This document shows, piece by piece, positions 13,088 to 61,976 of a stretch of 64,000 nt of DNA. This DNA is from Geosiphon pyriformis uo1. Lineage: Eukaryota > Fungi > Glomeromycota. A program made the position numbers and the translations under genes. Numbering within the stretch: the first letter of the stretch is position 1; every line of letters begins with the position of its first letter. The DNA lies in assembly GCA_016748015.1 (NCBI GenBank), contig JAAOMT010000664.1, positions 256,715 through 320,714 of the forward strand. Reading direction: 5' to 3'. The notes below the pieces were generated by a model, which saw only the letters and a list, made by a program, of their open reading frames with translations, did no database searches and was not told the DNA's origin.

Positions 13088-13836
13088 TGTTATAGTTAAG
13101 ACCTATATTTCTTATTAATTATTACATGTATTAGCCACTGATGTCATATGATTAGCCACACTATTTTTAGAAAGTGATCATTGACCTGATCAATAACCTG
13201 ACCATTGACCTGACTGTTGACCTGATTATTAATCTGATCAATAACCTGATCATTGACCTGATTATTAATCTGATCAATAACCTGATCATTGACCTGATTA
13301 TTGACCACTTTTGACAGCTATATAAGCAATGAATCTTTTAGCTGTAGAAAAGCATGTAATAACAAGCATCTGAATAATTAAGAATAAATAAAATAACAAC
13401 TTTCATCTCAATCCTTCTCTTATCACTAATTTCTCTTTCCCTACCTTTAAGTATCTGAACATCTTAAAGATAAAAGATTACTTGTTGGCCTTTTCCTGAC
13501 ATATATAATTGTAGCATTTGAAGATTATTTGAATAAATGTGACTGAAAAGCACAAGTTGATACCTGATATTGAATTCTAAGAGTGCCGACATAAGGCATA
13601 GAATTATACTAGTGGTAATCAATTGTTGACAGTATGGACTATCTCTCTACCTTCAGATTCCCCAGTTATCTTTGAAAAGAATAGTGACTGAGATATTTTA
13701 TGAGACTGATCTTGCACATTGAATCCATACTCATTCAATTTACTCTTTAAAGTTGAAATTCCCTTTGATTATTTCCATTACCCTACAATCCTGTTCTTCC
13801 TTACTATCCATTAGCTTGTTACTCCAACCCATAACA
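13088..13836 (+). repeat. 5' LTR of B
   Basis: Aligns with 20160-20788 apart from an extra 120 bp of tandem repeat. Confidence 0.93.
13175..13306 (+). repeat. 11 x 12-bp tandem repeat (consensus TGATCATTGACC) in B's U3
   Basis: Units counted directly. Confidence 0.9.
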
Positions 13837-18178: not shown

Positions 18179-19537
18179 ATAGACTTGAACAACTACTCTG
18201 CCTTAATGGAATTTTTGAATAAAGGACAATATCCACTAGAATACAATTGACAGCAAAGAAAACATTTGTGCAAACAATCAAATTTCTATTTAATCTGCCA
18301 GAACCAACTATACAAAAGAAACAGAAAAGATCCTGACTGCCTCCAGAGAGTCATAAGATTTGAAGAAAGAAAAATTGTGATCTATAACATGCACACTGAT
18401 CCATTAGCTGGACATTTTGGAAAAACTAAAACAATTCAGAAAACTCTAATTTGCTATTATTGACCTATCTTGGGAAAAGACATTGCTGAGTACATTAAAA
18501 CCTGTGATATCTGCCAAAGAAAAAAAAAACCCAATAGAAAAAAATATATTCATCCAATCTCTGTTGGCCAATCATTTGACAGGATTGGTATAAATGTTGT
18601 TGGACCCTTAACAATAACCCTTGATGGCAACAGATACATTATCATAACTACTAACTATATTACAAAGTGGGTAGAAGCAAGAGCCACTTCAGACCAAACA
18701 GCAGTCTTAATAGCCAATTTCATTCATGAAAATATCATCTGCCATCATGGCTGCCCCAGAAAACTTTTATCTGATAGAGGAAAAGCTTTTCTTAGTACAC
18801 TGGTTAAAGAACTTTGTAGAAAAATGGAAATACATCATAAATTTTTCTCCTCTTATCACCCCCAAACAAATGGCCTAGTGAAACGTTTTAATAGAACATT
18901 ATGTGAAACTCTAACCAAAACAAATGAAGAAACAAACTTATGGGACAAAGTACTGCCTTCAGCTTTGTTTGCTTATAGAACTGTGAATCATGACATAACA
19001 AGTTATAAACCTTTTTATTTGCTCTATAGATGCATGACAACACTACCAATAGAAACTGATATTGAGACAATATCCTTTGAAGAGATTACAATAGCAAATT
19101 ACAAAGATATTTTGCAAAAAAAACTTGGTACCATTCTTGATTCATTGGTAGAAGCACAAATAGTTGCTTTTGAAAAGATAAAACAGTTTCAAGAAAAACT
19201 TAAAAAGAAGAAAACCTATAAAACACTTTCTTTAAATATTAGTGACTTGGTATTAGAATACCGTTTAGACAGAGACAATATTTATGGTAATAAATTTTCT
19301 AGCCAGTGGAAAAAACCCTTTATAGTCAACAAAGTTTTGAACAATAGTTCTTATATTCTTCAAGATCAATCTGAAACAATCTTTAATGATCAACCTGTTT
19401 ATGGCATGTGACTCAAGAAATATCACAAACAACTTGATTGGTTGTCTGTTGTGGTAATACTGACTCAAATGATCAACAAAAATCAAGTACAAATAAACAC
19501 ACCATTCCCAAAACAAAGGTATCTTCAATCAACATGA
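18179..19537 (+). pseudogene. B integrase as a separate ORF (HHCC, DDE core, decayed GPF/Y region)
   Basis: H..PLAGHFG...CDICQR, SDRG and YHPQTNGLV motifs. It starts 65 nt after the RNase H stop, in a different frame; the ATA at 18179 is inferred to be a decayed ATG. Confidence 0.85.
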
Positions 19538-20190
19538 ACAATTATTTTCTAAATTAAAACATTCAAAATGCCTTCTATACTCTCCATGAGTATTGGATTA
19601 AAAACTATTCAAATGCTACTTTGACCATTGAAAAACAAACCACTATAACTGATAACAGTAGAACACATACTGTTATTAGACCAAAAAAAACAACTACCAG
19701 AAGAGAAAAAATTGGTGGCAAAATGGATAAATATCTGTCAGAAAATATAACAGCAGTGATACTTATATCTTCCACCATACTTGGAAAAACAATTAAAGAA
19801 ATCTTACCCATAGACAAAAACTTGTCATATAGAAGACAACTAGAGCTCTATGGTCACCTTGGTGAAATCATAGATGACATGAAGCTTATGAAAAAAACAA
19901 CTTTAGAGATACAGGCAGAAATTTTGGGCATTATATGATTAGATGTTCCAAGAGTTTTAACCATTGCTAGAAGAGCCAAAACTCTAATACAAAGATTTGG
20001 TCTCTTGAATACAAAATTCATTTCACCTCAAGTATTATACATTCTATCTACAAAAGACTTTAATAAATTAGTTAACTTTGAGTTAGATAAAACTCTTCAA
20101 ATAGATTACATTATAAATAGCTTGATTTTGCCGGAGCTCAATCTTTTTGGAGAAGATAATGTTACGGTTGAGACCTATACTTCTTATTAA
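19534..20190 (+). pseudogene. B accessory ORF3 (~218 aa, unknown function), overlapping the PPT and the start of the 3' LTR
   Basis: ATG 19534 is in frame with ORFs 19621 and 20005; only two internal stops. Confidence 0.7.
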
Positions 20191-24980: not shown

Positions 24981-25616
24981 TTAATATTAAGTTCTGTCGA
25001 AATCTTCATTCTGAATTAGCTTTAATACTTTTTTTTCTAGTATTGTTTGTTCAACTTTATTTTTTATGTCTTTTACTTGTACATTGTTCATTCTTCTCTA
25101 TTGGTTAATGGTTATGGTTTCTATGTTAGAGTGTAACAGTATTTCTGGATAGTTCTGAAATATGTTGTGCAGTCAATAAATTGTTCTCACATGTAGTGTC
25201 AAGTTCGTCTTTTTTCTAATAAATTCTTCAATTTGCTGTATTATGTTTTGATTAAATATTCTCTTGGATTTGTCGATATACAACTCCTGAATATTCAACT
25301 TTCGACCTAACTAGTAGTAACAGTATAATATTAGAAGTTGTTTTGTCCATTGTTTCCAATTCTTTTTTGTGAGTTCTTCTTTTGATGCCATAATAGGTAT
25401 TTTTCCAAAAGTGTTTTTTACTTTTTCTATTATATTATTTGACCAGTTTTTATCACTCTTTGGTACCTGCTGATATAGTGTATTCTTTGTCTTTTTTTTT
25501 GTGTTTTGATAGCAAATTGTTTGGTTGTTAACAATAATTTCCATGTTTAATGGTTGTTGACTTAATGTCTGGAATAATTGTTGAGCTATGATATGAATAT
25601 GATCTGGTATTTCCAT
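24981..25616 (-). pseudogene. C accessory ORF3 (MEIPDHIHIIAQQLF..., 212 codons)
   Basis: Same length and frame as A's ORF3; stop directly before the PPT. Confidence 0.8.
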
Positions 25617-33377: not shown

Positions 33378-34287
33378 TGTTACAAGTGATTATTTGGTGT
33401 CTCAAATCAAATAACAAACCTGTAACTTGGTGCTCAGTATCTACTCTGATAAATGATGGTGGTAATATTGGTACATTGTCTCTATCTGAAGGCTTTAATT
33501 GAAAGTTTTTTGTATAATGAACAGAGATTTAATGACGATATAGTTGGTTGATGAGTTGTGTTTTCAATTTCTGTTTTTAGCTTGATGACTGGTTTATTCT
33601 GGCAGTTGTGCTCTTTTGGTAAGCTATCTATTAATATATATATAATTTTACCCTTATTTCTGGGTCTTTTATTAGGCTATCTATGACGTTAATTACTTAG
33701 TACTTTAATCCTTAATCCATTAGTATACAACAATAAAATCAAAAAAAAGAAAAGAAAATAAGAAATGAGCCAAGGCAATATGCAAGTTAGTATCTGTCAA
33801 TAGCTGTAATCAAGAGCTATTGTTCTAGTGTGGCTAAGTATCAATTGCTATTAACATAGAGTGTTGATAGTGGAGAGTAGATTGAAATGGTAAATAATTA
33901 TTTATTAATATTTGTGAATAGAAAGTCACTTTAGATGAAATCTAAACTGAGAGGTCTCTAATAGAAGGGTTCTGTCTTTTTTCTACTTCTAACACTACTG
34001 TTATATATACATAATTGATGTTCTATGAAATTGCTCACATTTTTGAGTGATGTGCTATGATTTCTTAAGCAATGCTTTCATTACTGAGCAATATGCTCTA
34101 ATTTTCTAATATCACTTCACATTGCTAAGCAATATGTTATGTTTTCTGTCATTGCTCTACATTGCTGAGCAATGTGCTGTGATTTCTGTCATTGCTCTAT
34201 ATTGCTGAACAATGTGCTCATGTGCTACATACTATTCGCTTATTGGTCTACTATTTTCTTATATCTGTTTTCTTTTTATGAATAACA
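33378..34287 (-). repeat. 5' LTR of C
   Basis: TGTTATTCATAA...TGTAACA followed by the PBS. Confidence 0.92.
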
Positions 34288-37486: not shown

Positions 37487-38122
37487 ATGGAAATACCAGA
37501 TTATATTTACATCTTAGCTCAACAATTGTTTCAAGCCTTAAGTCAACAGCAATTAGACATAGAAATTGTCATTAACCACCAAACAATCTGTTATTAAAAC
37601 AACAAACAAAAAGAAAAAAATACACCATACTAGTGACCACAGAAACAATCAATAAACTGGTCAGATAAAATAGTAGAGAAAGTAAAAAACACTTTTGGGA
37701 AAATATTCATCATGATTTCAACAAAAGAATTTTCAAAAGAAAATTGGAAACAATAGACAAAACAACTTCCAATACTATACTGCTACTATTAGTTGGAACA
37801 AAAGTTAAACATTCAGAAATTATATTTTAATAAAGCCAAAAAGATATTCAATCAAGAAATAATACAGAATATTGAAAATATTATTAGGAAGAAAGCAAAT
37901 CTAACACTGTACATTAAAACAATCTATTGACTACACATAATATTTCAAAATTACCCAGAAATATTGTTACACTTCAACATGAAGACAATCACCATTAACC
38001 AATGGAGAAGAATAAACAATGCACAAATCAAAGATATAAGAAACAAAATTAAACAAACAGTATTAAAAAAAGAAGTATTAGACTTAATTCAAAGTAAAAA
38101 TTTTAACAGAGCTCAATATTAA
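37487..38122 (+). pseudogene. A accessory ORF3 (MEIPDYIYILAQQLF..., 212 codons)
   Basis: Colinear with ORF3 of C; ends ..RAQY* at the PPT. Confidence 0.8.
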
Positions 38123-38975: not shown

Positions 38976-39828
38976 TGTTACTCATAGAAATATAGAGAAT
39001 ATAGATTAGCATAGTTATTAACCAATCAGAAGTAGACGTAGTAAAATATGGAATTCCAGGATTCCTCTCAGAAATTGCAGGATTCCAGAAATTACAGAAT
39101 TTTCACAAGAAATTACAGAATTCCAGAATTCCAGAATTCCTCTCAAAAGAATTGCAGGATTTCTGTTGTGAAGAATTGAGGAATTGAGAAATCTCAATTA
39201 TGTATATATAGCAGTAGAATTAGAAGCTAAAAAGACAAACCTCTCAGTTTAGATTTCATCTAAACAACTTTCCAAACCACAAATAAATAACTGTTTGTTA
39301 TCTCAAATCTGCTGCCACTATCAACATGAAGTGTTGATAGTAATTGATACTTAACTACACTAAAACAATAGCTCTTAATCATGGCTATTGACGAAATACT
39401 AACTTGCAAATTGCCTTGGCTTATTTCTTTTCTTTCTTTATTTTCTTTTCTTTTTTTTATTTCTTGCTTTAATTTTATTGTTGTTTACTAACTCTATTAA
39501 GAATTAACACATAGGGTACTAACGTCAGAATAAACATGACTGGTAAAAGACCCAGAAATAAGGGTAGAACATTCAATTGAGGATAGCTTACCAGAAGGAA
39601 TACCGGCCATCAAACTGAGAAAAAAATTGACAAAACTGCAGTTTTAGGAAGCTATAGATAAAACTATTATCATTGAATCTTTGTCCATTATACAAAAAAC
39701 TCAACCAACCCTTCAGATACAAACCTGTCAGACACAAACCTTCAGATCACTATTGACTGCAACTAGATTTGAGCACCAAGTTACAGGTTTGTTATCTAAT
39801 CCAACACCAGAAATAATCACCTGTAATA
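38976..39828 (+). repeat. 5' LTR of D
   Basis: Same length as, and colinear with, 48292-49144. Confidence 0.95.
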
Positions 39829-39887: not shown

Positions 39888-42800
39888 GTGGCAAAATTAG
39901 AAAACATAGGAGCAAACCATCTAGAATTCACAAAATTCTTATTTCAACACTACTGTCAACATTTGGGATTAAATTACAACCACATATCAGTGGAATCAGC
40001 TTTCAATTTCTACATCAATGAAAAAATTGCCTATCTGTTAGGAACACCAGTAAATATCAAATCGGCAAGAGAAGTCTTTTACAGTAAATTAATTCAAAAT
40101 ACTAACTTGCCAACAAATCACAATTTTGCCTCCATCATCACGGAAATCAACAAAGAAATTGAACACCACACACTGCAAAGATACCCCATTACTTACATAA
40201 GCAAAGGCAAAGGAAAACTGCAAACACCAGCAATAACACCCAAAAAAATACAACCACCTACTTGAAAGAAAACAAGAGTTGAATCCCCAACTAATCCATC
40301 ATACCACTATACACCCAGAAGTGCCATTAATATTACATCTACCAGCACGTCCACATCAAACATAACATCAGCATTTGGATGATTTCCATTCCAAAGTAAA
40401 CAAAGGAAAGCAGAGTTATTAGAACCATATGATGTGTATTTTGAAGGATTTAACTCGTGATCATCAACACTATCAGGACTCCAATTACCATTGCCTTCCC
40501 CAGATTTCAAAATTTCTGATCTGTGGGAAGTAATGGAATCAGAAGAAGAGGAAGAAGAAGAAGCTGAAGATTAAAAATTCACTTGCCAGAACCTGATCAC
40601 TGAAAACCCAGAATCTTCAAACTCAGCAAAATCTAAACCCAGAAAATCCGGAAATCAAAACTCCGAACATTCAAACACCACCAACTCAGGATAATTGAAA
40701 CCCCGATTTAATAAATCAACAAAACTTACCTCTAGTAATTATCATCAATCAACCACCAATTAATCCAATAGCCAAACCCATACAACCACCACTTTAACTA
40801 CCACCCCAACAACTTATGCAACAACAACCACTTCAACTACCACTACAACAACCCAATTTAGATCCAATGGCCTATGCACCAATCGCAAAACTTGACAATT
40901 TTACTGGTAAAGAAGACGACGCCCAAATATGGCTCAACAATGTTGAAAAAGCTATAGTAGCCAACAGATGAAATGACAGTAGAGCCTTTCAAGCAATCTC
41001 CTATTTTCTCAAAGATACTACCAACTCGTGGTATCAGAGCCTAGTCGCCAAACCACAAACTTTCAATGAGTTCAAAACAGAATTCTTGAGATACTTTAGT
41101 AATAATAATAGTATTAATTACTTGATCAACACATTCACTACTATCAAACAAGAGGACACAGAAGCAGTCACCACTTACTTGGGATGCTTCCATAGAAATC
41201 TGCATCAAATTCAGGCAATTCAAGCTGATTACTTTACAGTGCCACAGATCTTGAACCAGTTCATCAGAAGATTGCACAGTAACATTCTTCAGCAAGTATG
41301 TCTAATGCATCCAGTTGACTTCTCAACTGCCGTCACCCATGCCAGAGATTTTGAAGCAGTCGAGCTAGAAGCCAACCACGTCCAAGCTGTAAATTTAGTG
41401 ATGAACAGATCATCTGACTTGGATTCCAAACTGAAACAATTCAGTAATACAATCAATCAGAAACTAGAAGGATACTTAGCTGACAATCATGCAATCTATT
41501 AACTACTACAATAATACAATAATTCAGGAAACACAAATTGTTTCCAAAATCAGCCACGTCTATCAACATTATTATCATCATCATTATCCAATCAGCCATG
41601 GCAGCCAGAAATGCATGTTTGCCACAACTGTAGTAAACAAGGTCACATTAGAGCCAACTGTTGGTTTTATAGCAACAATTCACAATCGGGAAATCAATAT
41701 TGAAACCCTGATTGCAAATTTCAGACTCAGAATTACTACCCAAACCAAAACCAATATCAAGCCAATTACTTGCCAATGATGCAGCAACCAATCTATCAAC
41801 CACCAGTATATCAACCTCCAATTTATCAACTGCAGCCACCGGTAATTTATCAGCCACAGCCCCAAATAATTTATCAGTTCCAACAACCAATTCAAATACT
41901 ACTCCAAAACTCCACTCAAATAACATCAAGAAATCCAAGACCTAGAATCACTCAAAACTGGAGATCAGTGATGGTTGTTCATTAACCAATTCCTAGCTTC
42001 TTTTACCAACCATCAGGCTCTCGACAGTAGAATCTGGGTACTGGTTTTACCCAAAACCCGAATTCTCAGAACTATTTAAGTCTCCTGGTTACCCCAAAAG
42101 ATGCCACCACCAACAACTCGGAATCCAACCCACCCCAAACAACACTTACCAACAATATTCTATCAGCAATTGTCACCAAAAACAAATCTTTTGCAGCCAT
42201 CTTTCCTTTCAAATTGGAGGAAACCATCAACCCATCTTTGTTCAATGGAGCAGCACTTAAGGAGAAACCCATCACCACAATGTACACTGATGCAAAAGTT
42301 GATGGTCACTCCATCAAACTAATCCTAGATAGTAGATTAGCTGACAGCATTATCACAAGACAACTCATGGATCAATTAGGTCACCGAGTTGATCACACTG
42401 TCAGCGCCAGGATTATTACAGCCAATAGAGCGACCAAAACACCCATTGGAGAGATTAATGATTTCTCCATAGAAGTCAATAGTATTATAGTACCAATCAA
42501 AATACTCATCATAGAAGCCATTTAATACCAAGCACTTATTGGGAATAACTGACTATCCAAAACCAATGTGACTTTAGATTAGAACACCCAAGAGCTCCAG
42601 CTTAGCCAGAATGGCTGACACATACGAGTACCAGCCATGTGTGACCACTTCAAGCCTATCACCATGCCATCAACACCACTTATCAAATTCGAGGAAGAAA
42701 AAGTGAAACCCACCTGAAAACCATACCAAGTTTCGTGGGCCGACATCAACCACAATGAACTGCTGCCAATACTTATCTGGGACAACAACGACAATGGAAA

Positions 42801-45800
42801 GGAGAAACAAAGAGAAAAACCTATTTGGGAAGCCACCATTGACACTTGGACCAACAACAACCAAAGCGAGATGTCACCAATTCTAGATTGGAAAGAAAAG
42901 AACAAGGAAAAAGGGAAAGAAAAGGAAGAAAACATACTTGAAAAAACCACTACTGCAGAAGAAATAACTAGTGACTGGGAAAGGGAATACTCATGTGAAC
43001 CAATAAAAGAGCCATTATATATCTCTCAAATGCAAGGACTGTAAGAAGAAACTGTCCTCAATGGGAGCTTGGGTAGTACTAGACAAAAACTACTAAATGC
43101 GAACCTATTACTATTGCAAGTCCTGCTATAGAAAATGATATAGCTACCCAAAAAGACAAGGCAAGTGGAACAACAAACCATGTTTCACTTGTGGTGAACA
43201 ATTACTCAATGAAAGAATGTGGAACGACATTCCTGGTCGAAGAGGAATGTGTGACACTTCATGCCAATACACAATCCTTATCAGTGATTGAATGAGTCAT
43301 GATATGTCCATCACAGCAGTATGACACCAAGCTATATCTCACCTAGATGGCTATCTACATGACAAAGACAAGATCTGGCAAATGGTTAATGCCAAAGTAA
43401 AAAGCACTTCGTCCAGTGAAATTCTGGAAATCAAGAATAACCCTCCAGAACCAACAAACATTGTTTTGGTTCTCAACTTGGACGTCTTTATTGACTTAGA
43501 AAACAGCCCAGAAGAATTTCATGAACACTATTAAAATCTAGCACCTATAAGAGAAGAGCAAGAGCAACACTTGAAAGAAATCAACATCTGATTATGTAAC
43601 CACTGTTTGATTCCATGTGACTTCCAATTCTGTGATAATTGTGACCTTATCTACAATCCACCACCATGCATGATCTACACAATCCCCAAAAAAGAAGAAC
43701 CAATTAACAGTTGTGCATTAGAATTAGAATTGAGTTCCAACTCTGATTCAAACTCTGACAATGATGATAACAAAAATAACAGTTCCAGCTCCATTCAAAA
43801 TGGCTATGACAATAATTCCAACTCAGATTCAAACTCCAATTCAAACTACAAACAATATATTGCACTCCCTGACCTTATCAAAGAGTAAGAACTGAGATGG
43901 TTTAGTGATAATAATGAAGGTATTATGTCAGAACGTGTGCATAATACTGATACAGGATTTGATCTGAGATATCCAGAAAAGAACACCATCAAATTGAAAT
44001 CTTATTCACGCACTTGTATTAATCTGAAAATAGCACTGGAAATTCCAACAACAATAATGGTTCAATTAGTATCTAGGAGTAATTTAGTGAAAAAGGAAAT
44101 AAACATCAGAGGAGGAATAATTGATGTAGGATATGTAAGAAATATCATTGCTATGCTACAAAATGACTCAGAAAAAGCCTATGTTATAGAGCCAAATGAA
44201 AGAATAGCATAGGCAATATTCCTGTCTCTGGTGAAAATTGCTTAGTTAGTTTCAATAGGAAATAGGAAAAAATTAGGGATAACAGCAAGAGGGATATAGA
44301 GATTTGGATCAACAGGTAGAATAGATGTATTAGTCAATATAGTAGAGGAAGAAATTATTGGCCAAGGAGAAATTATCTCAACTGGTCAAACAATTTCCAT
44401 TCTACCATATAGCCAATACATGTTAGCAATAGAAAGGAGAGAAAAGGAGCAAGAACAGATTTTTGAAACAGAAGCAACCCTTTATGAATCAAGAGAAATT
44501 GGACTTATTAATCTATACATACCAGCCAAGAGCCATAACCATATCAAAATTCCCATTTACAACAAAACTAGAAATGTTGTAGAGATACCAGAAGGAACCA
44601 CTCTCAGATATTTAACCACGGAAATTGAAGATCAAGCACCAAGCAGCATTCCAGATTTTCCACAGCTTTGTGGATATGTGGACATTACATCACAAACCAT
44701 CTATGGACAAAACAAATGTTATCTATTACAGCCAGAACAATTGAAACAGATAAACATGGGAAATCTAGACCCATTTCAACAGATGCAACTAAAGATGTTA
44801 CTCAATAATTTCAATAACATCTTTACCAGTGAAAACAAATTTGGCAGAACTGATATTATCCAGCATCAAATCAAAACTGAAGATGCAATGCCAATCAAAC
44901 AGTGAGCATATAGGATACCACCAGCCAGTCATGAAATCATCCATCAAGAGATTAACTGAATACTTGACAATGGGTTAATTCAGCCATCAATGAGCCCATG
45001 GTTATTACCAGTAGTACTTGTCCATAAGAAGAATAGAAAAATCCAATTTTGTGTAGACTACAGAAAACTCAATGGTGTAATTCGTAGAAACAGCTATCCA
45101 ACTCCACGGATACAAGAACTATTCGATGCTTTTGGTGGAAACAAATGGTTCTTAACATTAGACTTGGATAGTGGTTACTGGCAAGTAGCCATGGATTTAG
45201 CTGACAAAGAAAAAATGGTGTTCACCACAAGAGAGGAAAACTTTGAATTTGAAGTTATGCCATTTAGGTTAACCAATGCTCCAGCTACATTCCAATGGCT
45301 AATAAAAATTGTGTATATTGGCTTATTGTGAAAATCAGTAGTTGTATACTTAGATGACACCAATGTATTCTCAAAAACATTTGATAATCATCTATGTTAT
45401 CTCCAACAAGTGTTTGAAAGACTACGATGAGCAGGATTAAAATTGAATACAACAAAGTGTTTTTTTGGCAAAACAGAACTAAAATTCTTGGAACACATAG
45501 TTAGCAAAGATGGCATAAAAACAGATCAGGAGAAAATAGAGATAGTAAAAAACTTTCTAATACCAATCAATATAACCGAGCTGAAATTATTTTTAGAATT
45601 TGTGAGCTATTATAGACACTTCATAAAGAATTTTTCAAAGATAGCACAATCATTCAATGATCTTCAAACCAAAAATGCAAAGTATGAATGGACTGAAACC
45701 TAGCAAGAAACATTTGACATCTTAAGAAGAAAGCTTATTCAAGCTCCAGTATTGATCTATTCAGATTATAGTAAACCATTTATTATCATTACTGATACAT

Positions 45801-46150
45801 CAGGTCAAGCATTGAGAGCAGTACTATCTCAGAGAGGATTGGATAAAAGAGAACATCCAGTCACATATGCCAGCTGAGGTTTGACTCCAGCTGAAAAGAA
45901 CTATGGAACACCAGAATTAGAACATCTAGCAATCTATTGGGCAGTTATGAAATGGAAAAAATACTTGAGCCAAAAGTTTGAGGTATACACAGATCACAAA
46001 AGATTGACATTACTCCAAAAACAAGAATTTGGAGATGGAAAACAGTCAAGATAGAAAATGGCTCTTTTGACATATACTTATACTATACATTATAAAAAGA
46101 GAAAAAACAACGGAAATGCCAACAGTTTGTTGCGAATAAGACAAATCTAA
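39888..46150 (+). pseudogene. D Gag-PR-Cys domain-dUTPase-RT-RNase H polyprotein (~2090 codons, decayed)
   Basis: MAYAPIAKL capsid region at 40867, CHNCSKQGHIRANC at ~41620, LILDS at ~42320 in the same frame as gag, YLDD at 45347, stop at 46148-46150. Confidence 0.9.
43925..44325 (+). pseudogene. dUTPase domain within D pol
   Basis: Motifs 1-5 of trimeric dUTPases: TGFDL, SRSNL, GGIIDVGYVRNI, ERIA(Q), and ARGI(Q)RFGSTG. Confidence 0.92.
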
Positions 46151-46211
46151 AAACATTTCAACCCAAAAATATAACAAAACCAAAACAATACTCACAAAAA
46201 TATAACAAAAG

Positions 46212-47594
46212 ATGAACACATAAAAATATCAACAACTTCAACATTATATAGATACTCAACAGTTCAAGGAGAAATTATCTCAACTAGAACAAAAGAGGAT
46301 CAAACAACAATCCAAATATTTTATCACTTACCAAAATATACTTTATCAGAAAAATAGAAAAGATGCAGATCAACCAACCAGAGTAATTACAAAACCAGAA
46401 AAGGAGACAATACTGTTCAACATGCACTCAGATCCAACTGCAGGACATTTTCATAAAGAAGCAACCATGGAAAGAACCAGAAAGAGATATTATTGGCCAT
46501 CAATATATCCAGACATCATTCAATATGTGCAAAATTGTGATACTTGTCAAAAAAGAGGAGGAACAAGACCTAGCAAACCATTGAGACCAATCAAAATAGG
46601 ACAATTATTTGACTGCATTGAAATTGATTTAGTTAGACCATTGACAATTACCAGCAGAAGCAACAGATATATTGCAGTAGCCATAGACTATCTTACTAAA
46701 TGGCCAGAAGCCAAAGCAATTCAAAGAGCAGATGCAAAATTCATTGCTGAATTTGTCTATTAAGATCTAATTTGTCGACATGGATGTCTAAAAGAACTAT
46801 TATCAGACCAAAGAATTCATTTTGTGAATAGAACATTAGCAGAACTAAGCCAAAGATTCAGAATTAAGAAACCACTATCATTATCATATCATTCACAAAC
46901 CAATGGATTAGTTGAAAAATTTAATAGAACATTGTGTGAAGCAATAGTAAAACTCAGCCAAGAAAACCAGAACAAATAGGATTTGTTCATACCATCAGTA
47001 TTATTTGCTTATCAGACAATGAAACAAAACACCACACAAGCAACACTATTTGAATTGATATACGGTAGAACAGCAATATTACCAGTTGAGATAGAGATTA
47101 ACACATATCCAACTGAACCAATAACAGAAGAAAATTTCCAAGAAACATTGTTAAGAAGAACATATGACTTAATGGAAACATTGGAAAACAAATAAAAAAG
47201 AGCAGCTGATAACATACAAAAGTCACAAGAAAAACAGAAAGAAAGACATAATAATCAACTACCAGACAAACCAGTTGAATTCAAGATTGAAGACAAAGTA
47301 CTCTTATATTGTACCAAAGCGGAAAAACAATGGAGTGGAAAATTTGACCCCAAATGAGATGAACCATTTTACATAGAAGAAATTCTAGGGAATAGAGCTT
47401 ACAAATTAAGACTGAATAACAAAATCTTAACCAAAGCAGCACATGGAAATCAACTGAAACTATACCACAACATTACACTACCATCCACCAGTAATATTCT
47501 ATAATTAGAAATACAGAAGATACTAATCCAACCAAAGAAGATTCCATGAGATCTGGAACCAATCATCATTATTGACAACAACATGTTAAATTAA
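46212..47594 (+). pseudogene. D integrase, separate ORF (460 codons)
   Basis: Own ATG 61 nt after the RH stop, in a different frame. HHCC, DDE core and KFDPK(W)DEPFY present; no chromodomain seen. Confidence 0.9.
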
Positions 47595-47648
47595 TTCATC
47601 AAAAGAATATATAAAGACATAGTAGATATAACAAGAAATATCAGAAAA

Positions 47649-48278
47649 ATGAAAATTATAGACAACATCTACTCACTAGCACAACAACTCTTTTAATTAA
47701 TTCAACACCAAGAGATGGAAATTACAATTAATCAACAAACCATCTGATATCAAAACACTAAAAAGACATCACCACATAGAACACAGAAAAAAACAGAAAA
47801 TACCATTGACAAAATGATTGCAAAAGTAAAATTAGCAATAAAAGAGTTGACAAAAGAGTCACTATACCAAGAATTGACTAAAAAAACTTGGAATTAGTAG
47901 ATACAACAATTTCCAAGAAACTATTGTTATTTTTACTTGGGACAACATGTAAATATCTAGAATCTATATACGGATAAAACAAAGCAATTATTTGACACAA
48001 AAATACTACAACAATTAGAACATTTTGTGGGAAAGAACAACTTATCTATACAGGCCTGAGCTATATACTGAATACATACAGCATTTCAGAATCGACCAGA
48101 AATCTTACTCAACAAAACAATGGATACAGTTACCAGTAATTAATTAGGAAAGATCACCAATGCTCAATTTGAAGAATTACAGACTCAAATAACACAAGTA
48201 ATTCTCGAAAATGAAATTTAGGAAATACTTCAAGAAGGGAAATTAACAGAGTTAGATTTCAATAGAGCTCAATATTAA
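47649..48278 (+). pseudogene. D accessory ORF3 (MKIIDNIYSLAQQLF..., 210 codons)
   Basis: Divergent from, but alignable with, ORF3 of A and C; same position and same ..RAQY* end. Confidence 0.8.
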
Positions 48279-48291
48279 AAGGAGGGAATAA

Positions 48292-49144
48292 TGTTACTCA
48301 TAGAAATATAGGGAATATATATTAGCATAGTTATTAACCAATCAGAAGTAGACATAGTAAAATGTGGAATTCTAGGATTCTTCTCAAGAATTGTAGGATT
48401 CCAGGAATTACAGGATTCTCACAAGGAATTGCAGAATTCCAGAATTCCAGAATTCTTCTCAAAAAAATTGCAGGATTCCTGTTGTAAAGAATTGAGAAAT
48501 TGAGAAATCTCAATTATGTATATATAGCAGTAGAATTAGAAGCTAAAAAGACAGATCTTTCAGTTTAGATTTCATCTAGACAACTTTCCAAACCACAAAT
48601 AAATAACTGTTTGTTATCTCAAACCTGCTGCCACTATCAATACTTCGTGTTAATAATAATTGATACTTAACTACACTGGAACAATAACTCTTGATCATGG
48701 CTATTGATAAAATACTAACTTGCAAATTGCCTTGGCTTATTTCTTTTCTTTCTTTATTTTCTTTTCTTTTTTTTATTTCTTGCTTTAATTTTATTGTTGT
48801 TTACTAACTCTATTGAAGATTAATGCATGGGGTATTGACGTCAGAATAAACGTGACTGGTAAAAGACCCAGAAATAAAGGTAGAACACTCGATTAAGAAT
48901 AGCTTACCAGGAAGAATACCAGCCATCAAGCTGAGAAAAAAATTGACAAAACTGTGGTTTCAGGAAGCTATAGATAAAACTATTATCATTGAATCTCTGT
49001 TCATTATACAAAGAACTCAACCAACCCTTCAGATACAAACTTGTCAGACACAAACCTTCAGATCACTATTGACTACAACTAGATTTGAGCATCAAGTTAT
49101 GGGTTTGTTATCTAATCCAACACCAGAAATAATCACCTGTAACA
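48292..49144 (+). repeat. 3' LTR of D
   Basis: TGTTACTCATAG...CCTGTAACA. Confidence 0.95.
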
Positions 49145-49899
49145 ACACCAAATTATAATTTTGTTATTTAATTAAAGACCCCAAATAATCACCTGTAATA
49201 CTGTTTATTCTTTGCTATTTTGTATACTACTTCTTTATATCTGTTAAATATAAGTTTATATACTGTGGTTTTCAAAAGTTTTGTGCTGAAAAAATGGTTT
49301 TTGAAAATAATTGAAGTCTTAAAAAATAGAAAAAAGACTGTTTTAACTATAGTAAATTTTATAAAACATTTAGTTAAATTGTATTATTTAAAAATTTGGC
49401 TTGTTAAATTAAAGTATAGAGCAAATATAAAAAAAACTAAATTGATTAAATATAATAACTTGGTGTTTAGTTTGTCATATAAAATAGTAAGTAGACTTTT
49501 AAACAGTATTGTGTATATATTAAATATAATTGAATTTTTTGTAATTAATTTTGGTAAATACAGACTGTGTTTTTTTTCTCAAATTTAAGTAATAAAATCA
49601 GAATTTATATAAATGTATAATATAATCTTGTTTGGCTTAAATAATTAGTCATATATAATAAAAGCATAAATTGTATTTAATTTAGACTTTTTAGTTTGAT
49701 TTTATATATTAAATAGCAGTTAAAATTTACTTATAAATAAAATAAAATAAAAAATTTAGTTTTATAAATATTTTAGTTGCTATTTTTTTCAAAAAATAAC
49801 AAAAAAATTTAAAAATTTAAAAATAATTTATATTGTTAACAAAAAACAACATATTAATATAATTTTATATCTTATATTAATACTTTTAAAATTTAATAT

Positions 49900-51799: not shown

Positions 51800-53034
51800 T
51801 TGAAATTCTTTGTATAATAAACAGAAATTTAATATAATAATAAATAATACTTAATATTTAATTTTTTTAGTATAATAACTAGTTTATTTTGGTGTTTTTA
51901 CTTTTTTAATAAATAACCTTAGTTTTTTTAACTGTATTTTATGTTTTTTCTTGGCATTTTTTATCAAGCAATTTTTGATATTATAATTTTAACACTTTTT
52001 TTAATTAATTAATAAATATAAATAAAAAAATAAAATAAAAATTATTATCTTATTAATAATTATAATTAAAAGTTATTGTTTTAGTGTTATTAATAATATT
52101 GTATTAATATTATTAGTGTTAATAAAGAGTAATTAAATTTTAATAAAATTAATTAAAATTTATAAAGCTATATTTAAATAATATAATTTAATAATTTTAT
52201 TAAAATAATTTATAGATTTTAAGTATTAAATTATTAATTATAAAAGTTAATTAATAAGATAAAATTAAACTTATTTCTAATTAAGCTTGTTTATTTTTTT
52301 GCTTTTAATATTTTTGTTATATATATATAAATTTTTATAATATAAAATTTCTAGAATTTTTAATATTTCTAACAGTATTTTTGGAATTTTTAACATTTCT
52401 AAAATTTTTGAAATTTCTAATAATATTTTTAAAATTCTTAATATTACATGTTTTAATAATCTTATATTCTGTTATTGATTATTTATATTATATTTTTTTA
52501 TTATTATTTTTTGTTTTATTCTATGTATTTTATAATTTTATTAAGTTAACTATAGAACTTTAATTGTTTTTTATATAATAAATTTTTGTCTATAAACAAA
52601 ATTTTATTAATTATTTTTCTAAATATGTTGAAAAATAATAATATAGTTAATATTATATATTTAAATATGTATTTATTTATTTTATTACCAGTTTTTTTCT
52701 TTTAATAATGGTTTTTTTTATTTAATAACAGTATATATTTTATTGTTATTATTTATAATAATATTTTTTAATAATTAAAGTAATATTTAAATAATTTTTG
52801 GTTTAATATTCATAAAAAGTATAGAAAATATTTTAAATATTTTAATTTAAAAAATAATTATTTATGTTAATAAAAAATATCTTTGGTTTAAAAATAGTAT
52901 ATTTATTTATAACTAAGTTTTACTAATTTTTTAAGTTAATATTATTATAATAAATAACCAATTAGATTATTTGTAATATTTTTTAAGTTATATATTATAT
53001 ATAAATTAATTATTAAAGACTATTTATATTGATT

Positions 53035-53220
53035 TTATAAGATATTATTAATTATTATATGTATTAGTCATTAATATTATATAATTAGCTATTTTATTTT
53101 TAGAAAATTATCAATAACTTAATCAATAATCTAATTATTAATTTAATTATTAACTTAATTAATAATTTAATTGTTAAATTAATTGTTAATCTAGTTATTA
53201 ACTACTTTAAATAGTTACAT
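53035..53220 (+). repeat. Decayed B-family LTR U3 fragment with ~8 12-bp units
   Basis: TTATTAATTATTATATGTATTAGTCATTAATATTATATAATTAGCTA matches 13112-13160. Confidence 0.65.
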
Positions 53221-53415
53221 TTTTATTTTATTTTATTTAATAAATATAATTTAACTACTATTTAGTATATAAAAACAAATTAAGTAAATCTAATTAAACA
53301 TAATTTATATACTTATTACATATAACCAGTCATTTAAACCAATCAAAACAATACTATACACTTATATAAATTTTTGTATTATTGTTTATACTTGAAAAAA
53401 AAACACACTTTATAC

Positions 53416-53553
53416 TATTACAGATAATTATTTGGAATATTAGAATAAATAACAAATCTGTAATTTAGTGCTTAATAGTTATTAAAATGATTTAAAAGTT
53501 TTGGTTGAGTTTTTTGTATAATGAACAAAGATTTAATTAATGATTTTTTCTAT
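53416..53553 (-). repeat. Partial A/D-family LTR (U5 end) abutting element E
   Basis: TATTACAGATAATTATTTGG...TTGGTTGAGTTTTTTGTATAATG matches the LTR ends. Confidence 0.7.
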
Positions 53554-56385
53554 TGTTACAGATAATTATTTAGATGTTAGAATAAATAACAAACTTATAA
53601 CTTAGTGTTTAATAGCTATTAATAATAGTAATTTCTGAAGATTTTATGATTTAAAGATTTTAGTTGAGTCTTTTGTATAATAGACAAAGATTTAATTGAT
53701 GGTTTTTTTTATGAATTTTTTTTTTCAATATAATAGCTGGTTTAATTTAACAGTTATGCTTTTTTGGTAAGCTATTTTTAAGTTGTTTATTCTTGTTTTA
53801 TGAGTTTTTTACTAAACTATTCTTGACATCAATTACTTAATACTTAATTCTTTTAATAAATTAATAAACAACAAATAAAAAAAAAAAATAAAAAAATAAA
53901 AAAAAAATTGATATTCTGTTAATAATTATAATCAAAAGCTATTAATTTAGTATAATTAAATATTGGATTCTATCAATATAGATTGTTAATCATGTGAAAG
54001 TAATTAATATTTTTTAATCAAACAATAATAACATGAATTGGATGATAATAGATCTTTTTATTAATATGTATATAATTTTATTTTAAGTTATAAAAAACTA
54101 TTTTTTAAAAGAAATAATATTTTATAATTCTTTGTTTTTAGCTTTTGTTTTTTTTTTCTGCTTCTAATACTCTTATTATATATACATAATTCATATTATA
54201 TGAAATCTTATATATTTCTACTTTTTTTTATATTACTTCTTAAAAATGTGCTTATTTCTGAAAATATACTATAATTTTTTAAAAATATGCTTACTTATTA
54301 AGTACTATTCTTCTATTGGTATATTTTATAATTTGTTTTTTCTTATATTTTTTTTTTATAAATAATATTATCTCTTCTTTCAATATTAAGCTCTATCAAA
54401 ATTTTTATTTTAAATTAAGTCTATTATTTCTCTTTTTAATACTGTCTATTTAATTCTAATTCTTATGTTTTCGAATTAAGAATTGGTTATTTTTTTCTAC
54501 TGGTTAATAATTATTGTTTTTATCTTTAAATATAGTAGTATTTCTGAATAATCTTAAAATAAGTATGTAGTCAATAAATTGTTTTAATATATAATATAGA
54601 ACTTGTTTTTTTTCTAATAAAGTTTTTAATCTGTTGTACTATTTTTTAATTGAATATTTTTTTAGATTTGTTGATATACAATTTCTGAATATTCAGCTTT
54701 TGTTTTAACTAATAGTAACAGTATGCTATTGGAAGTTGTTTTATCTATAGTTTCTAATTTTCTTTAATTAATTCTTTTGTAAAAATAGTAATTAGTATTT
54801 TTTTAAAAGTATTCTTTACTTTTTTTATGATTTTATTTAACCAGTACTTTTTTTGACTTTGTAGTTACTAATATGAAGTAATTTTTGCTTTTTTTTTGTG
54901 TTTTTATAACAAATTGTTTGGTAATTGATAATAATTTTTATGTTCAATTGTTGTTAATTTATAGCTTAAAACAATTTTTGTATTATTATATAAATATAGT
55001 CTGAAATTTCTATTTTTTATTGTTGTTTTTGTTACATATATTGTGTCTTTATATATTTTTATTTTGATCTATTTTTTGTGTTTTTTTTAATGATTACAAT
55101 TGGTTTCAAATTTTGTGAAATCTTATTTGGTTTAACTAGTATTTTTTGTACTCTTAGTTGTAAAATATTACTAATAAATAATAATACTATTATGAATTAG
55201 AATAACAAGCTAATAGATAGCAAAAGAGAACAGAATTGTAAGGTAATAAAAGAAATCAAAAGGAATTTAACTTCAAAGAGCAAATTGAATAAGTATAGAT
55301 TTAATGTGCAAGATTAATCTTATAAAATATTTCAGTTGCTATACTTTTCAAAAGATAACCAGAGAATCTGAAAGTAGAGAAATAGTCTGTACTGTCAACA
55401 AATGATTACACACTAGTATAATTATATGCCTTATATTGGCATTTTTAGAATTCAATATCAGATATTAGATGTATTCTTCAGTTATGTTTTATTTAATAAT
55501 CTTCAAATGTTGCAATTACATATTTCAAGAAAAAAGTAAAGAATAACCAACAAGTAATCTTTTATTCCAAGATGTTTAGATACTTGGAGGTAAGGAAAGG
55601 GAAATTAGCAATAAGAGAATGATTAAAATAAAAGTTGTTATTTTATTTCTTTTTTTTCTTTGATTTTTATATGCTTTTTTACAGCTAAGAAATTTATCAC
55701 TTATATAGCTATCAAAAGTGGTCAATAATTAAGTCAATGATTAGATCAATGATCAGATCAATGGTTAAGTCAATAATTAGGTTAATAATCACTATTTAAA
55801 AATAGAATGGCTAATTATATGACATCAGTGACTAATACATGTGATAATTAATAAGAAGTATAGGTTTTAACTGTAACAATACTATATTGTAATATAGTTT
55901 TAGTCAATTATTATGTGCTGTTTTGATTAAAATTTTGTTACTTTATCTTAATTTATAATCTTTATTTCTTAAAACTTCTTTAATATAAAATAAATTATTT
56001 TATTTAGGATCAAACTTTCTATTCTATTGTTTTTTTATTTTAGTATAATTTAAAAGTACTTTGTTTCCAATTTTAAATTCAACCAGTTTATTTGGTAACT
56101 GGTTATTATGTCATTTTTTTTGTTTTTTTTGTGACTTTTGTATATTATTAACTGCTTTTTGTCTTTTGTTTTCTAGAATTTTTATTAAGTTATATGTTCT
56201 TTTTAACAATATTTCTTAAAAGTTGGCTTTTGTTATTAGTTCTGTTAGATATATATTGATACTTATCTCAATTGATAATATTGTTATTTTACTATAGACT
56301 AGTTTAAATAGTGTTGTTTGTATAGTATTTTAATTTATTATCTAATAAACAAATAATATTAATGATATAAACAAATTTTATTTGT
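53554..56385 (-). mobile_element. Truncated A/C-type element E: 3' LTR (53554-54367), PPT, ORF3 remnant (~54380-55013), integrase C-terminus
   Basis: Colinear with C 24967-26290; interrupted by a B-family solo LTR and cut off by F. Confidence 0.82.
55188..55878 (-). mobile_element. Solo LTR of family B
   Basis: Full-length match to the B LTRs, with 6 12-bp units and a perfect TSD ATAC at 55184-55187 and 55879-55882. Confidence 0.9.
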
Positions 56386-59119: not shown

Positions 59120-61976
59120 ATATTTTAATTAGAAACACAAATTTTATTAATTAGACCTGAAAATATTTTACAAGATTTAAAACCAATTATTATAATTAAA
59201 CATAGTTTACAAACAAAAATTTAAATTACATAAATTAAATATATAAATATTAAAAAAAACAAAAAAAAAAGCTTAAAATACATTGGTATAAATTTTTTAG
59301 ACAAAATTTTAAAACAATAATTATTTAAAACAATTCAATAATTTACAATACTAATAAAAATTAGAATTAATAAAAAAAAAATATGATACAAAAATACAAG
59401 TAAAAAAAAGTAAACAAAAATTTAATTAGAATTGAATATTTTTATTTTTACAAATAATCAAAAAAGAAAAAAAATACATGGCCTTAAACAATAAAAAAAA
59501 TCAGAAAAACTTTATATAATTTAGTCATAAAACCAAATACTAAAGAGTAGATCTTTAAAATCTTTAAAATGTAAACAAAAAGATTTCTATTAATATACTA
59601 ATTTTTTAAAATTGACAAAAGACTAGACTTATAAATACTGTATATAAACAACAACAAATAAATATTCATTAAAAAAACTTTTAAACAAGTAAAAAAATTT
59701 ATTAGAAGAAACAACTTGACATTATATTATAAGGCAATATACTAATTATATTTAGTATTTAAATACTGTTTTACTATACTATTGAACAATTTATTAAAAA
59801 CTATTATAGTTAACAACATAGAATAAATAACAAATTTTTAGTTTAAAAAACTACAAAAAACAATATTTAATACAATAATTAAATATTATACTAAAAAACA
59901 ATTTTTAAAAATATATATAATTTTACAAAAACTCAATTCTAAAAAAAATATTATTATTATTCAAGTAAAAAAACTAATTCAAAATCATTAAAAGAATATA
60001 ATTAATATATAATAATATAAAAAAAAATTTAATATAAAATAATACAAAATAACATAAAATAACTTAGAATAACACAAAATAATATATAATAATAATATAA
60101 AATAGTACAAAATAACTAGTAATAACATAAAATAACTAATTATAGCATAAAAAAATAAAACAATAACTAAAATAACAAGCAATAGTTAATAATAACAAGT
60201 AATTAAAAGCAATTTTATAAAATTAAAGAATATATATAAAAGTAAATAGTTTCGATAAATAGAAAAGAACAACAAAAAAAGACAAAAATTACTTGTCTTT
60301 TAATATTTTAATATTAGTTTAATAAATTCTTATTTTATATATTTTTAGACCAATTTAATAAAATTTTATTATATAATTTACATATACATAATTCTAATAT
60401 TCTAATTGTCAAAATCAAATTAATTGTTTTTTTATCTTTATATTAGATTAGATATTATTAATATAAAACACTTTTAGAATTTTAATAACTTGAACTAATT
60501 ACTTTTGATTATAATAATTAATGAAATACTAATTTTATTTTTTATTTTTTCTCTTTTGTAAAGTAACAACATTAAAAATTAACTGTTTGAAAATAAACTT
60601 TATAATAGTTTGTTAAAAAAGAGAAGCTTTTTTTAAATTTAAATATTAACTTTATTTTATTAGCTTATTAGAAAGGTAAAAAGACAATATTAAATTTTAA
60701 TAATTGTGCTTATTAGCTTAAAGAAAAATACAACTAAAATAACATAATTGAAAAAATCATATCTTTCTGTTTTATAACAAAAAAATTTAATAGGTAGAAT
60801 TTTAAACAAAAAAAACTTTTAAAAATTGATAATCTATAATATAACCAAAAACAATTTTATTTGATTTATATACTGTTCTTAATATTGAATTATAAGTGTT
60901 AAATATTATGAACATTCACTAAGTTTACCCATAACACTATAAAAGTCAACTTTTTTACAAAAAATCTTAACTGTAGACTACTTAATAATAATAAAAAGAA
61001 AAAAAAATAAACTAAAGAAAAAAAATAAGAAAATATGTTAAAAAAGTTATTTGAATTTAAGCTTAAAAGTTATTAATAATTATTGAAATTGGTAGCTAGT
61101 TAATTTTAAGCTGTTAGTATAAAATAGTTAATTTCGAGCAGAAATAATTAAAGATTTTGTTTTTTAAAGTAAGTTTTATTGGAATTAATTTGTAAAAAAA
61201 TCTAATAAAAAATTAATTTTAAATAAAATATATTTTTTCGAAAAAAAAAGTTTTTTTTTATACAACTTGTTATAGTACTATTTTATAATCTAGCATTTTT
61301 TTTCCTAATATTTTAACAAATTAAAAATATAATTTATTAAACTTTAAGTTATTTTTGCAAACTATAAATTATTTTGGTAAATTATTAAATATTTTATCAA
61401 ATTACTAAATTTTTTAATCAAAGTATTGTATAATCTGATTATTACAATTTAGTTACATTTGTATTCTGTACAAATTAAGTTATTAATTAAATAATAATTT
61501 GAATAATTTGATAAGATAATAAGTAATAATTTGAAATAATAATATATACTAGTTAATAATAAGAATTATAAGAATCATTTTATGTTAAATAATATTTTAA
61601 ATTTTGGCTAATAACAACAAATAGTTTGTTAAAGCTCAGTTTAACCAAAACTCATTTGAAATTAAATTTTTTATAAACAAAGTTTTGAAAAGAGTTATTA
61701 CTAATAAGCAGTTTTTATATTTGGTTTTGATAATGCTTTATCTTATTATTAATTATAATATTCAATTTAGTTTTATTTTTAATGGTGTTTATATTAAGTA
61801 AAATACTTTAATTCATAAGAGCTTAAAATTAAAATCTGGTTTGTTTTTGGACTTTTCAAATAATATAATCTATTATTTTTTTTTATATAATCTAAAAACT
61901 TTTAAACAAGTATAAACTAAATACAAATTGGCTTTTTTCTTGAGTTTTTCAAATATTAATAGTATTATAAGTCAGC

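What the first reader, a model, noticed from the sequence alone, without database searches (positions are those of the whole stretch)
47649..48278. Conserved ~210-aa accessory ORF3 in the env position that is not env-like
Seen: an ATG-initiated frame between IN and the PPT in A (37487-38122), C (25616-24981), D and remnant E, 210-212 codons long in A, C and D. D's version is much more diverged from A/C than the adjacent integrase is, yet it keeps LAQQLF, YCY..LG, IY(R).H..FQN.PEILL and the C-terminal ..QY*. B has a same-sized ORF in the same place with a faintly similar pattern (LELYGHLG...ARR..L..F). No signal peptide or transmembrane stretch is apparent. Inference: a fast-evolving soluble accessory protein such as an anti-silencing factor, transactivator, or targeting or packaging factor for the free integrase.
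Basis: partly seen in the sequence, partly recalled or inferred. Interest (0 to 1): 0.78.

Follow-up and report, generated by a model that had tools for sequence, protein, structure and literature searches.

The report
Swappable third gene of fungal retrotransposons
Jumping genes of a fungus carry, between their integrase gene and their end repeat, a small soluble protein gene of no known family that is kept by selection and has likely been swapped between lineages; it likely binds the element's own promoter repeats to keep it switched on.

Summary
Ty3/gypsy elements A, C, D and E, plus an unlisted remnant F, carry a ~210-codon sense ORF between integrase and the polypurine tract. All window copies are dead from transition-driven decay. 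Intact relatives exist: a 211-aa Geosiphon pyriformis gene model and two unnamed metagenomic proteins; two metagenome contigs show the gene after integrase. Purifying selection between D and A/C is clear (transversion omega 0.06-0.09); between A and C it is not significant. D's divergence is better explained by module exchange than by fast evolution: fourfold sites are saturated in ORF3 (9/19, 14/24) but not in integrase (6/74, 10/80). It is not env-like. No Pfam, NCBIfam, PHROG or PDB match was found. The predicted helical core shows only weak likeness to DUF1016/YhcG N-terminal and ParB/KorB DNA-binding domains. B's 218-aa ORF is probably a remote homolog, bridged by one metagenomic protein. 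In the window, ORF3 types A/C, D and B each lie beside a different tandem-motif array in the LTR. Best guess (0.4): a DNA-binding regulator of its own LTR. Verdict: a new variant of the known 'additional ORF' kind; function untested.

The parts
47649..48278 (+). ORF3 of element D, 209 aa, 9 internal stops
37487..38122 (+). ORF3 of element A, 211 aa, 6 internal stops
24981..25616 (-). ORF3 of element C, 211 aa, 4 internal stops; 73% identical to the intact gene model P0004
54383..55013 (-). ORF3 remnant of element E (A/C type, frame-shifted)
59404..59913 (+). ORF3 remnant F, a further subfamily; groups with P0150 at 97/94 support
19534..20190 (+). ORF3 of element B, 218 aa, 2 internal stops; runs through the PPT about 30 nt into the 3' LTR; probable remote homolog
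46212..47594 (+). Integrase of D as a separate ORF with its own ATG (H2C2, rve, SH3_Tf2-1), ending 54 nt before ORF3
40900..46150 (+). gag, protease, Cys-rich region, dUTPase, RT and RNase H of D (decayed), ending in a stop at 46148-46150
48277..48291 (+). Polypurine tract of D, overlapping the ORF3 stop codon
48292..49144 (+). 3' LTR of D (TG...CA); 92.2% identical to the 5' LTR that starts at 38976
48366..48478 (+). U3 array of GGAATTNCAGGATTC-like motifs in D's 3' LTR (7 matches; 6 in the 5' LTR at 39050-39162), upstream of a TATA-like TATATATA
34079..34214 (-). U3 array of the palindrome CATTGC-N3-GCAATG at about 40-bp spacing in C's 5' LTR; also in A's LTRs (10913-11049, 38220-38274) and C's 3' LTR (24869-24893)
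13178..13305 (+). U3 array of TGACCTGAT-like repeats in B's 5' LTR (approximate limits; largely deleted from the 3' LTR)
   Evidence: read from the sequence

Best explanation
ORF3 is a conserved third gene of a fungal Ty3/gypsy retrotransposon lineage, encoding a soluble protein with a predicted helical core that likely binds the tandem motifs in its own element's LTR promoter and would keep the element transcribed against host silencing. Shown: the position, conservation across several subfamilies and other sources, purifying selection between D and A/C, no membrane segment, discordant divergence of ORF3 and integrase, and a different U3 motif array beside the A/C, D and B types. Predicted: an N-terminal helix with two strands, a basic low-confidence linker and a helical core. 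Inferred: module exchange by recombination during reverse transcription. Inferred and untested: expression from its own ATG (like the free-standing integrase ORF, by a subgenomic RNA or reinitiation), DNA binding, U3 as the target, and activation or anti-silencing as the outcome.
For: Gene is real and selected: omega_tv D-C 0.06 (p 4e-12) and D-A 0.09 (p 3e-8), with 95% ranges up to 0.15 and 0.2; the two shifted frames give 0.8 or more. Intact 211-aa P0004. 90 HMM hits, including full-length P0190 and P0207. L001 holds RT-RH, integrase, an intact ORF3, then PPT and LTR-like sequence; L002 holds the integrase end then an ORF3. Travels with U3: transversion divergence of D from A/C is 0-5% across most of integrase, 13-27% in ORF3 and 17-24% in U3, while A-C stays at 4-10%. 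U3 arrays are type-specific: 12 of 13 palindrome matches lie in A/C LTRs and 13 of 15 GAATTC-type matches in D's LTRs (chance means 1.8 and 0.5, but the motifs were read off these LTRs). 4 of 4 D1-type gene models that run into U3 carry the GAATTC type, and 1 of 1 A/C-type the palindrome. DNA-binding hints, all weak: a colinear 96-column profile match to 8 YhcG/DUF1016 N-terminal sequences (score 21.6, E 0.019), not reached by 80 column shuffles or 80 block shuffles; Spo0J and KorB DNA-binding domains span the whole core (residues 78-209) at Z 3.9 and 3.6; a basic patch near residues 35-55 in 6 of 8 proteins, and pI 8.5-9.7 in the six Geosiphon-type ones. Precedent: VANC targets form tandem repeats that differ between related TEs (PMC5735166, abstract). 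Context: transition-dominated decay suggests a cytosine-directed host defence (inference).
Against: No direct evidence of DNA binding or expression. ORF3 and U3 are neighbours, so one crossover moves both with no functional link. One gene model (P0188) joins a D2-type ORF3, which groups with D (100/99), to the A/C palindrome U3, so the coupling is not strict. The DUF1016 family was chosen from recall, after the fact; hhalign probability is only 2.4%, the best hmmsearch score is 6.5 bits, and Pfam scans did not list it. Structural Z values of 3.3-3.9 are below the background for helical proteins, and unrelated chains rank higher. P0207 and P0190 are acidic (pI 5.4, 5.9). LTR U3 regions commonly carry tandem motifs for host factors (general knowledge). 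A-C selection is not significant (omega_tv 0.35, p 0.059, range 0.15-1.0).
Confidence: 0.4

Rival explanations
1. ORF3 binds the element's RNA: it packages it, or it controls translation of the three-cistron message (gag-pol, integrase, ORF3).
For: ESM Atlas features of both P0004 and P0207 list a Closter_coat cluster at 0.93 and a translation-repressor (PF01818) cluster at 0.90-0.91. Integrase is a separate ORF in 5 of 5 elements examined, so downstream cistrons need a special route to expression. The linker is basic.
Against: The Atlas recognition values (2030, 2186) are under 2300 and the shared features (156) under 170, so the tool rates these hits as weak. Closter_coat was not listed in the Pfam scans. 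Gag already has capsid domains and a zinc knuckle.
Confidence: 0.2
2. ORF3 is a protein adaptor: it binds integrase or a host chromatin or silencing protein, to steer insertion (these elements nest inside one another) or to block a defence protein.
For: The integrase is free-standing and Pfam found no chromodomain on it. The window is a nest: B and C inside A, D inside A's 3' LTR. Accessory TE proteins have many predicted host contacts in Arabidopsis (PMC13547354, passages).
Against: Closely related integrases (1.6-3.2% transversions over the 3' 500 nt) sit in front of ORF3s that differ by 19-20%, so there is no sign of tight ORF3-integrase co-evolution. Nesting is common without a targeting factor (general knowledge). 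A host-protein target is not weakened by this argument.
Confidence: 0.25
3. There was no swap of ORF3: D simply belongs to an older lineage whose integrase and dUTPase were replaced from A/C-like elements, or ORF3 just evolves faster. This concerns history, not function.
For: Third-position transversions for D vs A/C are 0.04-0.08 in integrase and dUTPase, 0.12-0.17 in gag and RT, and 0.24-0.30 in ORF3, so several modules have different depths and the direction of exchange is not fixed. ORF3 among A, C and E is 2-3 times more diverged than integrase.
Against: Pure rate acceleration does not explain saturated fourfold sites (9/19, 14/24) when A-C ORF3 shows 2/29. ORF3 is deeper than gag and RT too. 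The counts are small.
Confidence: 0.3
4. ORF3 is an env-like fusion or cell-exit protein.
For: It sits in the env position, in sense orientation.
Against: No transmembrane or signal-like stretch in 8 of 8 proteins; 0-2 cysteines; only about 210 aa; the predicted core is all-helical.
Confidence: 0.03
5. ORF3 is a neutral relic or a chance open frame.
For: All window copies carry stops; A-C omega_tv is not significantly below 1.
Against: Intact homologs at 20-37% identity in the same position, indels in multiples of three, low omega for D vs A/C, and a confident fold model. The integrase copies are broken in the same way.
Confidence: 0.02

Closest known systems
Sense additional ORFs between pol and the 3' LTR (aORF-3S; Athila, Bagy2), Vicient and Casacuberta 2020, PMC7264820
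   Same: Position, sense orientation, presence in most copies, unknown function
   Different: Those described are env-like, some with transmembrane segments, and come from plants and insects. This one is soluble, fungal, about 210 aa, and follows a free-standing integrase ORF.
Antisense aORF of Boty (Botrytis, Sclerotinia), as cited in PMC7264820
   Same: Fungal gypsy element with an extra ORF between pol and the 3' LTR
   Different: Antisense; sequence relationship not tested
VANC anti-silencing proteins of VANDAL DNA transposons (PMC5735166)
   Same: Proposed working principle: a TE-encoded protein acting on tandem motifs that differ between related elements
   Different: VANC belongs to plant DNA transposons and is MAIN-related (PMC13547354, passages); no homology found here (no Pfam hit); binding and demethylation are shown for VANC and untested here
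YhcG/DUF1016 N-terminal helical domain; ParB/KorB/Spo0J DNA-binding domain
   Same: Weak colinear profile match over 96 columns; weak structural overlap with the core
   Different: Far below any membership threshold; no PD-(D/E)XK nuclease domain; the YhcG N-domain itself has no assigned function (PMC1189080, passages)
3' accessory transactivators of complex retroviruses (foamy virus Tas, HTLV Tax; recalled)
   Same: Small soluble gene at the 3' end proposed to act on the LTR
   Different: No sequence or fold match found; these viruses have env

Membership tests
Ty3/gypsy LTR retrotransposon (host element) | gag, protease, RT, RNase H, integrase in that order between LTRs, with PBS and PPT | tested here: met
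   Pfam Retrotrans_gag, Ty3_capsid, gag-asp_proteas, RVT_1, RT_RNaseH, Integrase_H2C2; best PDB matches 4ol8 and Ty3-G 7q5b; LTR ends, TGG-starting PBS-like site and PPT
aORF-3S (sense additional ORF) | Separate sense ORF between pol and the 3' LTR | tested here: met
aORF-3S (sense additional ORF) | Present in most copies of the family rather than a one-off capture | tested here: met
   A, C, D, E, F in the window; 90 hits over several subfamilies; L001 and L002. No genome-wide count was possible.
env / env-like | Transmembrane segment and signal peptide | tested here: not met
   Highest KD19 0.44-1.29 and highest N-terminal KD8 0.49-1.68 in 8 of 8 proteins; SignalP and TMHMM not available
env / env-like | Expression from a spliced RNA | not testable with these tools
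   no RNA data could be obtained
DUF1016_N (YhcG N-terminal domain) | Pfam match at the curated cut-off | tested here: not met
   not listed for 3 of 3 proteins or 7 of 7 proteins at E up to 10
DUF1016_N (YhcG N-terminal domain) | Remote profile homology | tested here: inconclusive
   score 21.6, E 0.019, probability 2.4%; 0 of 80 and 0 of 80 shuffles reach it; family picked from recall
ParB/KorB helix-turn-helix domain | Shared fold | tested here: inconclusive
   1vz0 Z 3.9, rmsd 5.2, 92 aligned; 1r71 Z 3.6, rmsd 5.3, 95 aligned; 6s6h Z 3.3, rmsd 3.1, 59 aligned; no chain reached Z 5 among 48,161
Closterovirus coat protein (PF01785) | Pfam match at the curated cut-off | tested here: not met
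   not listed
Closterovirus coat protein (PF01785) | Filamentous-virus coat fold | tested here: inconclusive
   Atlas feature score 0.93 with 156 shared features; fold searches gave nothing significant
VANC-like anti-silencing factor (functional class) | Sequence-specific binding to tandem motifs of its own element | not testable with these tools
   only co-occurrence of motif type and ORF3 type was examined
VANC-like anti-silencing factor (functional class) | Loss of methylation or silencing in trans | not testable with these tools
   needs experiments

The most novel reading that the evidence does not exclude
A fungal gypsy lineage is organised like a complex retrovirus without env: three separately initiated cistrons (gag-pol, integrase, ORF3), where ORF3 is a helix-turn-helix-type protein of bacterial DUF1016/ParB-like ancestry. 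ORF3 and its U3 operator array would form an exchangeable lock-and-key cassette that lets each subfamily switch on or unsilence only its own LTR.
Probability: 0.15. Interest if true: 0.8.

Novelty: new variant of a known kind. Interest (0 to 1): 0.5.

Why it matters
LTR elements cover 41.2% of the G. pyriformis genome (PMC11952901, passage), and how they spread under heavy cytosine-directed mutation is unexplained. A conserved third gene is a concrete candidate. Intact versions (P0004, P0207, the B-type 218-aa proteins) and type-specific candidate operators make a binding test straightforward. A sequence-specific self-activator encoded by an LTR retrotransposon would parallel VANC and retroviral transactivators. 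At the least, more than a hundred 'hypothetical proteins' in the Geosiphon annotation are explained as retrotransposon ORF3 copies or fragments.

Tried and rejected
No family match: Pfam (best for an ORF3 region E 0.007, under the cut-off), NCBIfam, PHROGs (best E 0.0012 over 53 residues, an unnamed family, in 1 of 7 proteins), PDB sequences (best E 0.47). Foldseek against PDB and BFVD: 0 matches at E 0.001 or better. VIA-align wide: best Z 4.8, none at 5 or more; this shows neither a different nor a new fold. The model folded was P0207, not a window copy. The B-type model failed (pLDDT 39.5) and was not searched; only its order of helices and strands was compared. B vs A/C/D by profile-profile comparison was not significant in five tries (probability 0.1-0.3%; core score reached by 28 of 100 shuffles) or by hmmsearch. 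Homodimer prediction of P0207: no verdict (0.15 and 0.13, alignment not used). RNA runs: no RNA holder listed. Viral contigs: no relative of P0004 among 30 candidate stretches. No whole genome is held and L001 has no handle, so there is no genome-wide census. An ORF3-integrase complex was not modelled (the single job went to the dimer). Earlier findings by place and by sequence: none. Rejected: env, neutral relic, and fast evolution as the sole cause of D's divergence.

Full report
Setting. The window is a nest of decayed Ty3/gypsy LTR retrotransposons. Named relatives of its ORF3s are Geosiphon pyriformis gene models: 4 of 4, 120 of the 120 listed (127 found), and 19 of 20. The host is therefore inferred to be this glomeromycotan fungus or a close relative (lineage). 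Element A (LTRs from 10831 and 38139) is interrupted by B and C, and D sits in A's 3' LTR. LTR-pair distances fit this order: A 0.143, C 0.105-0.125, D 0.084, B 0.082. Of 284 LTR-pair differences, 272 are transitions, so I used transversions as the record of evolution before insertion.

Observation. D (209 aa), A and C (211 aa) are ATG-initiated frames that end at the PPT. They are 38-66% identical by tblastn; E and an unlisted remnant F also match. All are broken by stops (9, 6, 4), and at 19 of 19 a relative has Q, R or W. Indels inside the ORF are 6, 12, 3 and 15 nt; the spacer upstream has 1-nt indels. There is no membrane-like stretch in 8 of 8 proteins.

Family. A search with C found the intact 211-aa P0004 (73%) and three partial models among 98 candidates. 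An HMM search of 1.84 billion representatives gave 90 hits. Of 10 looked up, 8 are Geosiphon models and 2 are unnamed full-length proteins from ENA and JGI (P0190, P0207); the other 80 were not looked up, though by eye they resemble the same Geosiphon subfamilies. A 12-row tree resolves A/C, D and F clades, a single G row, and the two metagenomic proteins as a pair. A metagenome scan (592 pattern matches, 2 confirmed) gave L001, which holds RT-RNase H, integrase, about 320 nt, the intact P0207 gene, PPT and LTR-like sequence, and L002, which holds an integrase end, about 770 nt and an ORF3 start. The position is therefore conserved outside Geosiphon-type elements; their host is unknown. Both P0004 and P0207 give a 190-aa, mostly Mucoromycota hypothetical cluster as the top Atlas hit (0.94), which the tool rates as weak at these recognition values.

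Selection. A codon model with separate transition and transversion rates gives omega_tv 0.06 (D-C) and 0.09 (D-A), against 0.05-0.11 for integrase; shifted frames give 0.8 or more. The 95% ranges reach 0.15 and 0.2. A-C gives 0.35 (p 0.059, range 0.15-1.0), which is not significant. Saturation makes the D values imprecise.

Why D is so diverged. Fourfold-site transversions are 9/19 (D-A) and 14/24 (D-C) in ORF3, against 6/74 and 10/80 in integrase; A-C shows 2/29 and 7/76. Transversion divergence of D rises from 0-5% to 13-27% near 47500-47650 and stays high through U3. Over the integrase 3' end vs ORF3, D differs from A, C and E by 1.6-3.2% vs 19-20%, while A, C and E differ among themselves by 1.8-3.8% vs 5.5-7.4%. 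So ORF3 is moderately faster than integrase and, in D, has a different history. Gag and RT are intermediate, so the elements are mosaics and the direction of exchange is not established.

Element B. Its ORF has many intact 218-aa relatives. Profile comparisons with the A/C/D family were not significant in five tries. End-to-end alignment of P0207 with three B proteins, PPT-derived tails removed, gave z 5.0-6.1 with 0 of 300 shuffles reaching it, and z 4.5-5.3 with block shuffles. P0190, P0004 and P0135 gave z 0.1-2.7 (9 pairs). The low-confidence B model has the same order of elements over its first 150 residues. I judge homology probable (about 0.7), resting on one bridging sequence.

Structure. 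The AlphaFold2 model of P0207 (14 sequences) has pLDDT 76.9 and pTM 0.63: helix 7-20, two strands, a low-confidence basic linker (38-51), and a helical core 54-220. No library gave a significant match. Two weak leads point to DNA-associated helical domains. From recall I suspected DUF1016_N, fetched E. coli YhcG and 7 of the 25 listed plasmid relatives, and found a colinear 96-column match (score 21.6, E 0.019, probability 2.4%) that none of 160 shuffles reached. Because the family was chosen after the fact, this is a lead only. Spo0J and KorB domains cover the core at Z 3.9 and 3.6, which is background level. The Atlas also offers closterovirus coat and a translation repressor as weak leads.

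LTR arrays. U3 of A and C carries CATTGC-N3-GCAATG palindromes about 40 bp apart, D carries GGAATTNCAGGATTC repeats, and B TGACCTGAT-like repeats, each upstream of a TATA-like box. Of 6 gene models that join an ORF3 end to a U3-derived peptide, 5 follow this pairing; P0188 (D2 type with the palindrome) does not. E's U3 is too decayed to type. Adjacency alone could give this pattern.

Mechanism. I commit to a trans-acting DNA-binding regulator of the element's own LTR (0.4). Reality, position, selection (D vs A/C), solubility and discordant divergence are shown; the fold is predicted; expression, binding and effect are inferred. Rivals: protein adaptor (0.25), RNA binding (0.2), env (0.03), relic (0.02); the remaining 0.1 is for functions I did not list. 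The fifth rival concerns history and is scored separately.

What is known. Additional ORFs between pol and the 3' LTR are a described kind (PMC7264820, part 1 of 3 of the text read). VANC supplies the precedent for TE proteins that target tandem motifs (PMC5735166, abstract and outline only; PMC13547354, passages). The YhcG N-domain is described as helical and unassigned (PMC1189080, passages). PMC11952901 (passages) gives the LTR content of G. pyriformis and has no whole-word occurrence of 'ORF'. Nine library searches listed no paper whose title or abstract opening describes this ORF; the other papers were seen as listings only. The Geosiphon genome papers were not among those listed, Repbase was not available, and no supplements were read, so an earlier description is not excluded. 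Two earlier scan findings describe similar soluble ORF3s in other genomes; I could not compare sequences, and they lower the surprise of the general pattern.

Verdict. A real, previously unnamed accessory gene family in a fungal gypsy lineage with a three-ORF layout; new variant of a known kind; interest 0.5.

Noticed in passing
window 46148-46212; also A (about 36080-36120), C (about 27110-27050), B (about 18110-18200) and L001:772-799: RNase H ends in a stop and integrase starts at its own ATG 24-90 nt later in 5 of 5 elements, so integrase is a free-standing ORF.
   Followed up: partly
window 43001-43700 (D), about 22390-23050 (A): A Cys-rich region of no Pfam family (CxxC repeats; LCxHCLIPCxFQxCxxCDLIY) lies between protease and dUTPase; its D-C divergence (0.25 at third positions) is twice the D-A value (0.12), suggesting another exchanged module.
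   Followed up: partly
window 43925-44317: dUTPase domain inside pol (Pfam E 1e-12), followed by a weak Spuma_A9PTase-like match just before RT (E 6e-4, under the cut-off).
   Followed up: no
LTR pairs of A, B, C, D: 272 of 284 differences are transitions on both strands, a RIP-like or methylation-driven mutator signature; sequence context not analysed.
   Followed up: partly
38972-38975 and 49145-49148; flanks of B and C: 4-bp target-site duplications: ACAC for D, and one-transition matches for B and C; D is inserted in A's 3' LTR (read).
   Followed up: partly
window 48597-49144: LTRs are mosaic: the middle is nearly shared by A, C and D (3-6% transversions), while over 48744-49025 D is closer to A (14-18%) than to C (31-35%).
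   Followed up: no
window 56456 and 58997: D-type GAATTC motifs also occur in two inverted LTR-like segments near 56385-59120.
   Followed up: no
window 6001-10000 and 52001-64000: Very AT-rich stretches (9-19% GC), probably older, heavily mutated elements.
   Followed up: no
window 507-5085: Several ORFs of 126-323 aa outside the nest (for example 2763-3734, minus strand) were not examined.
   Followed up: no
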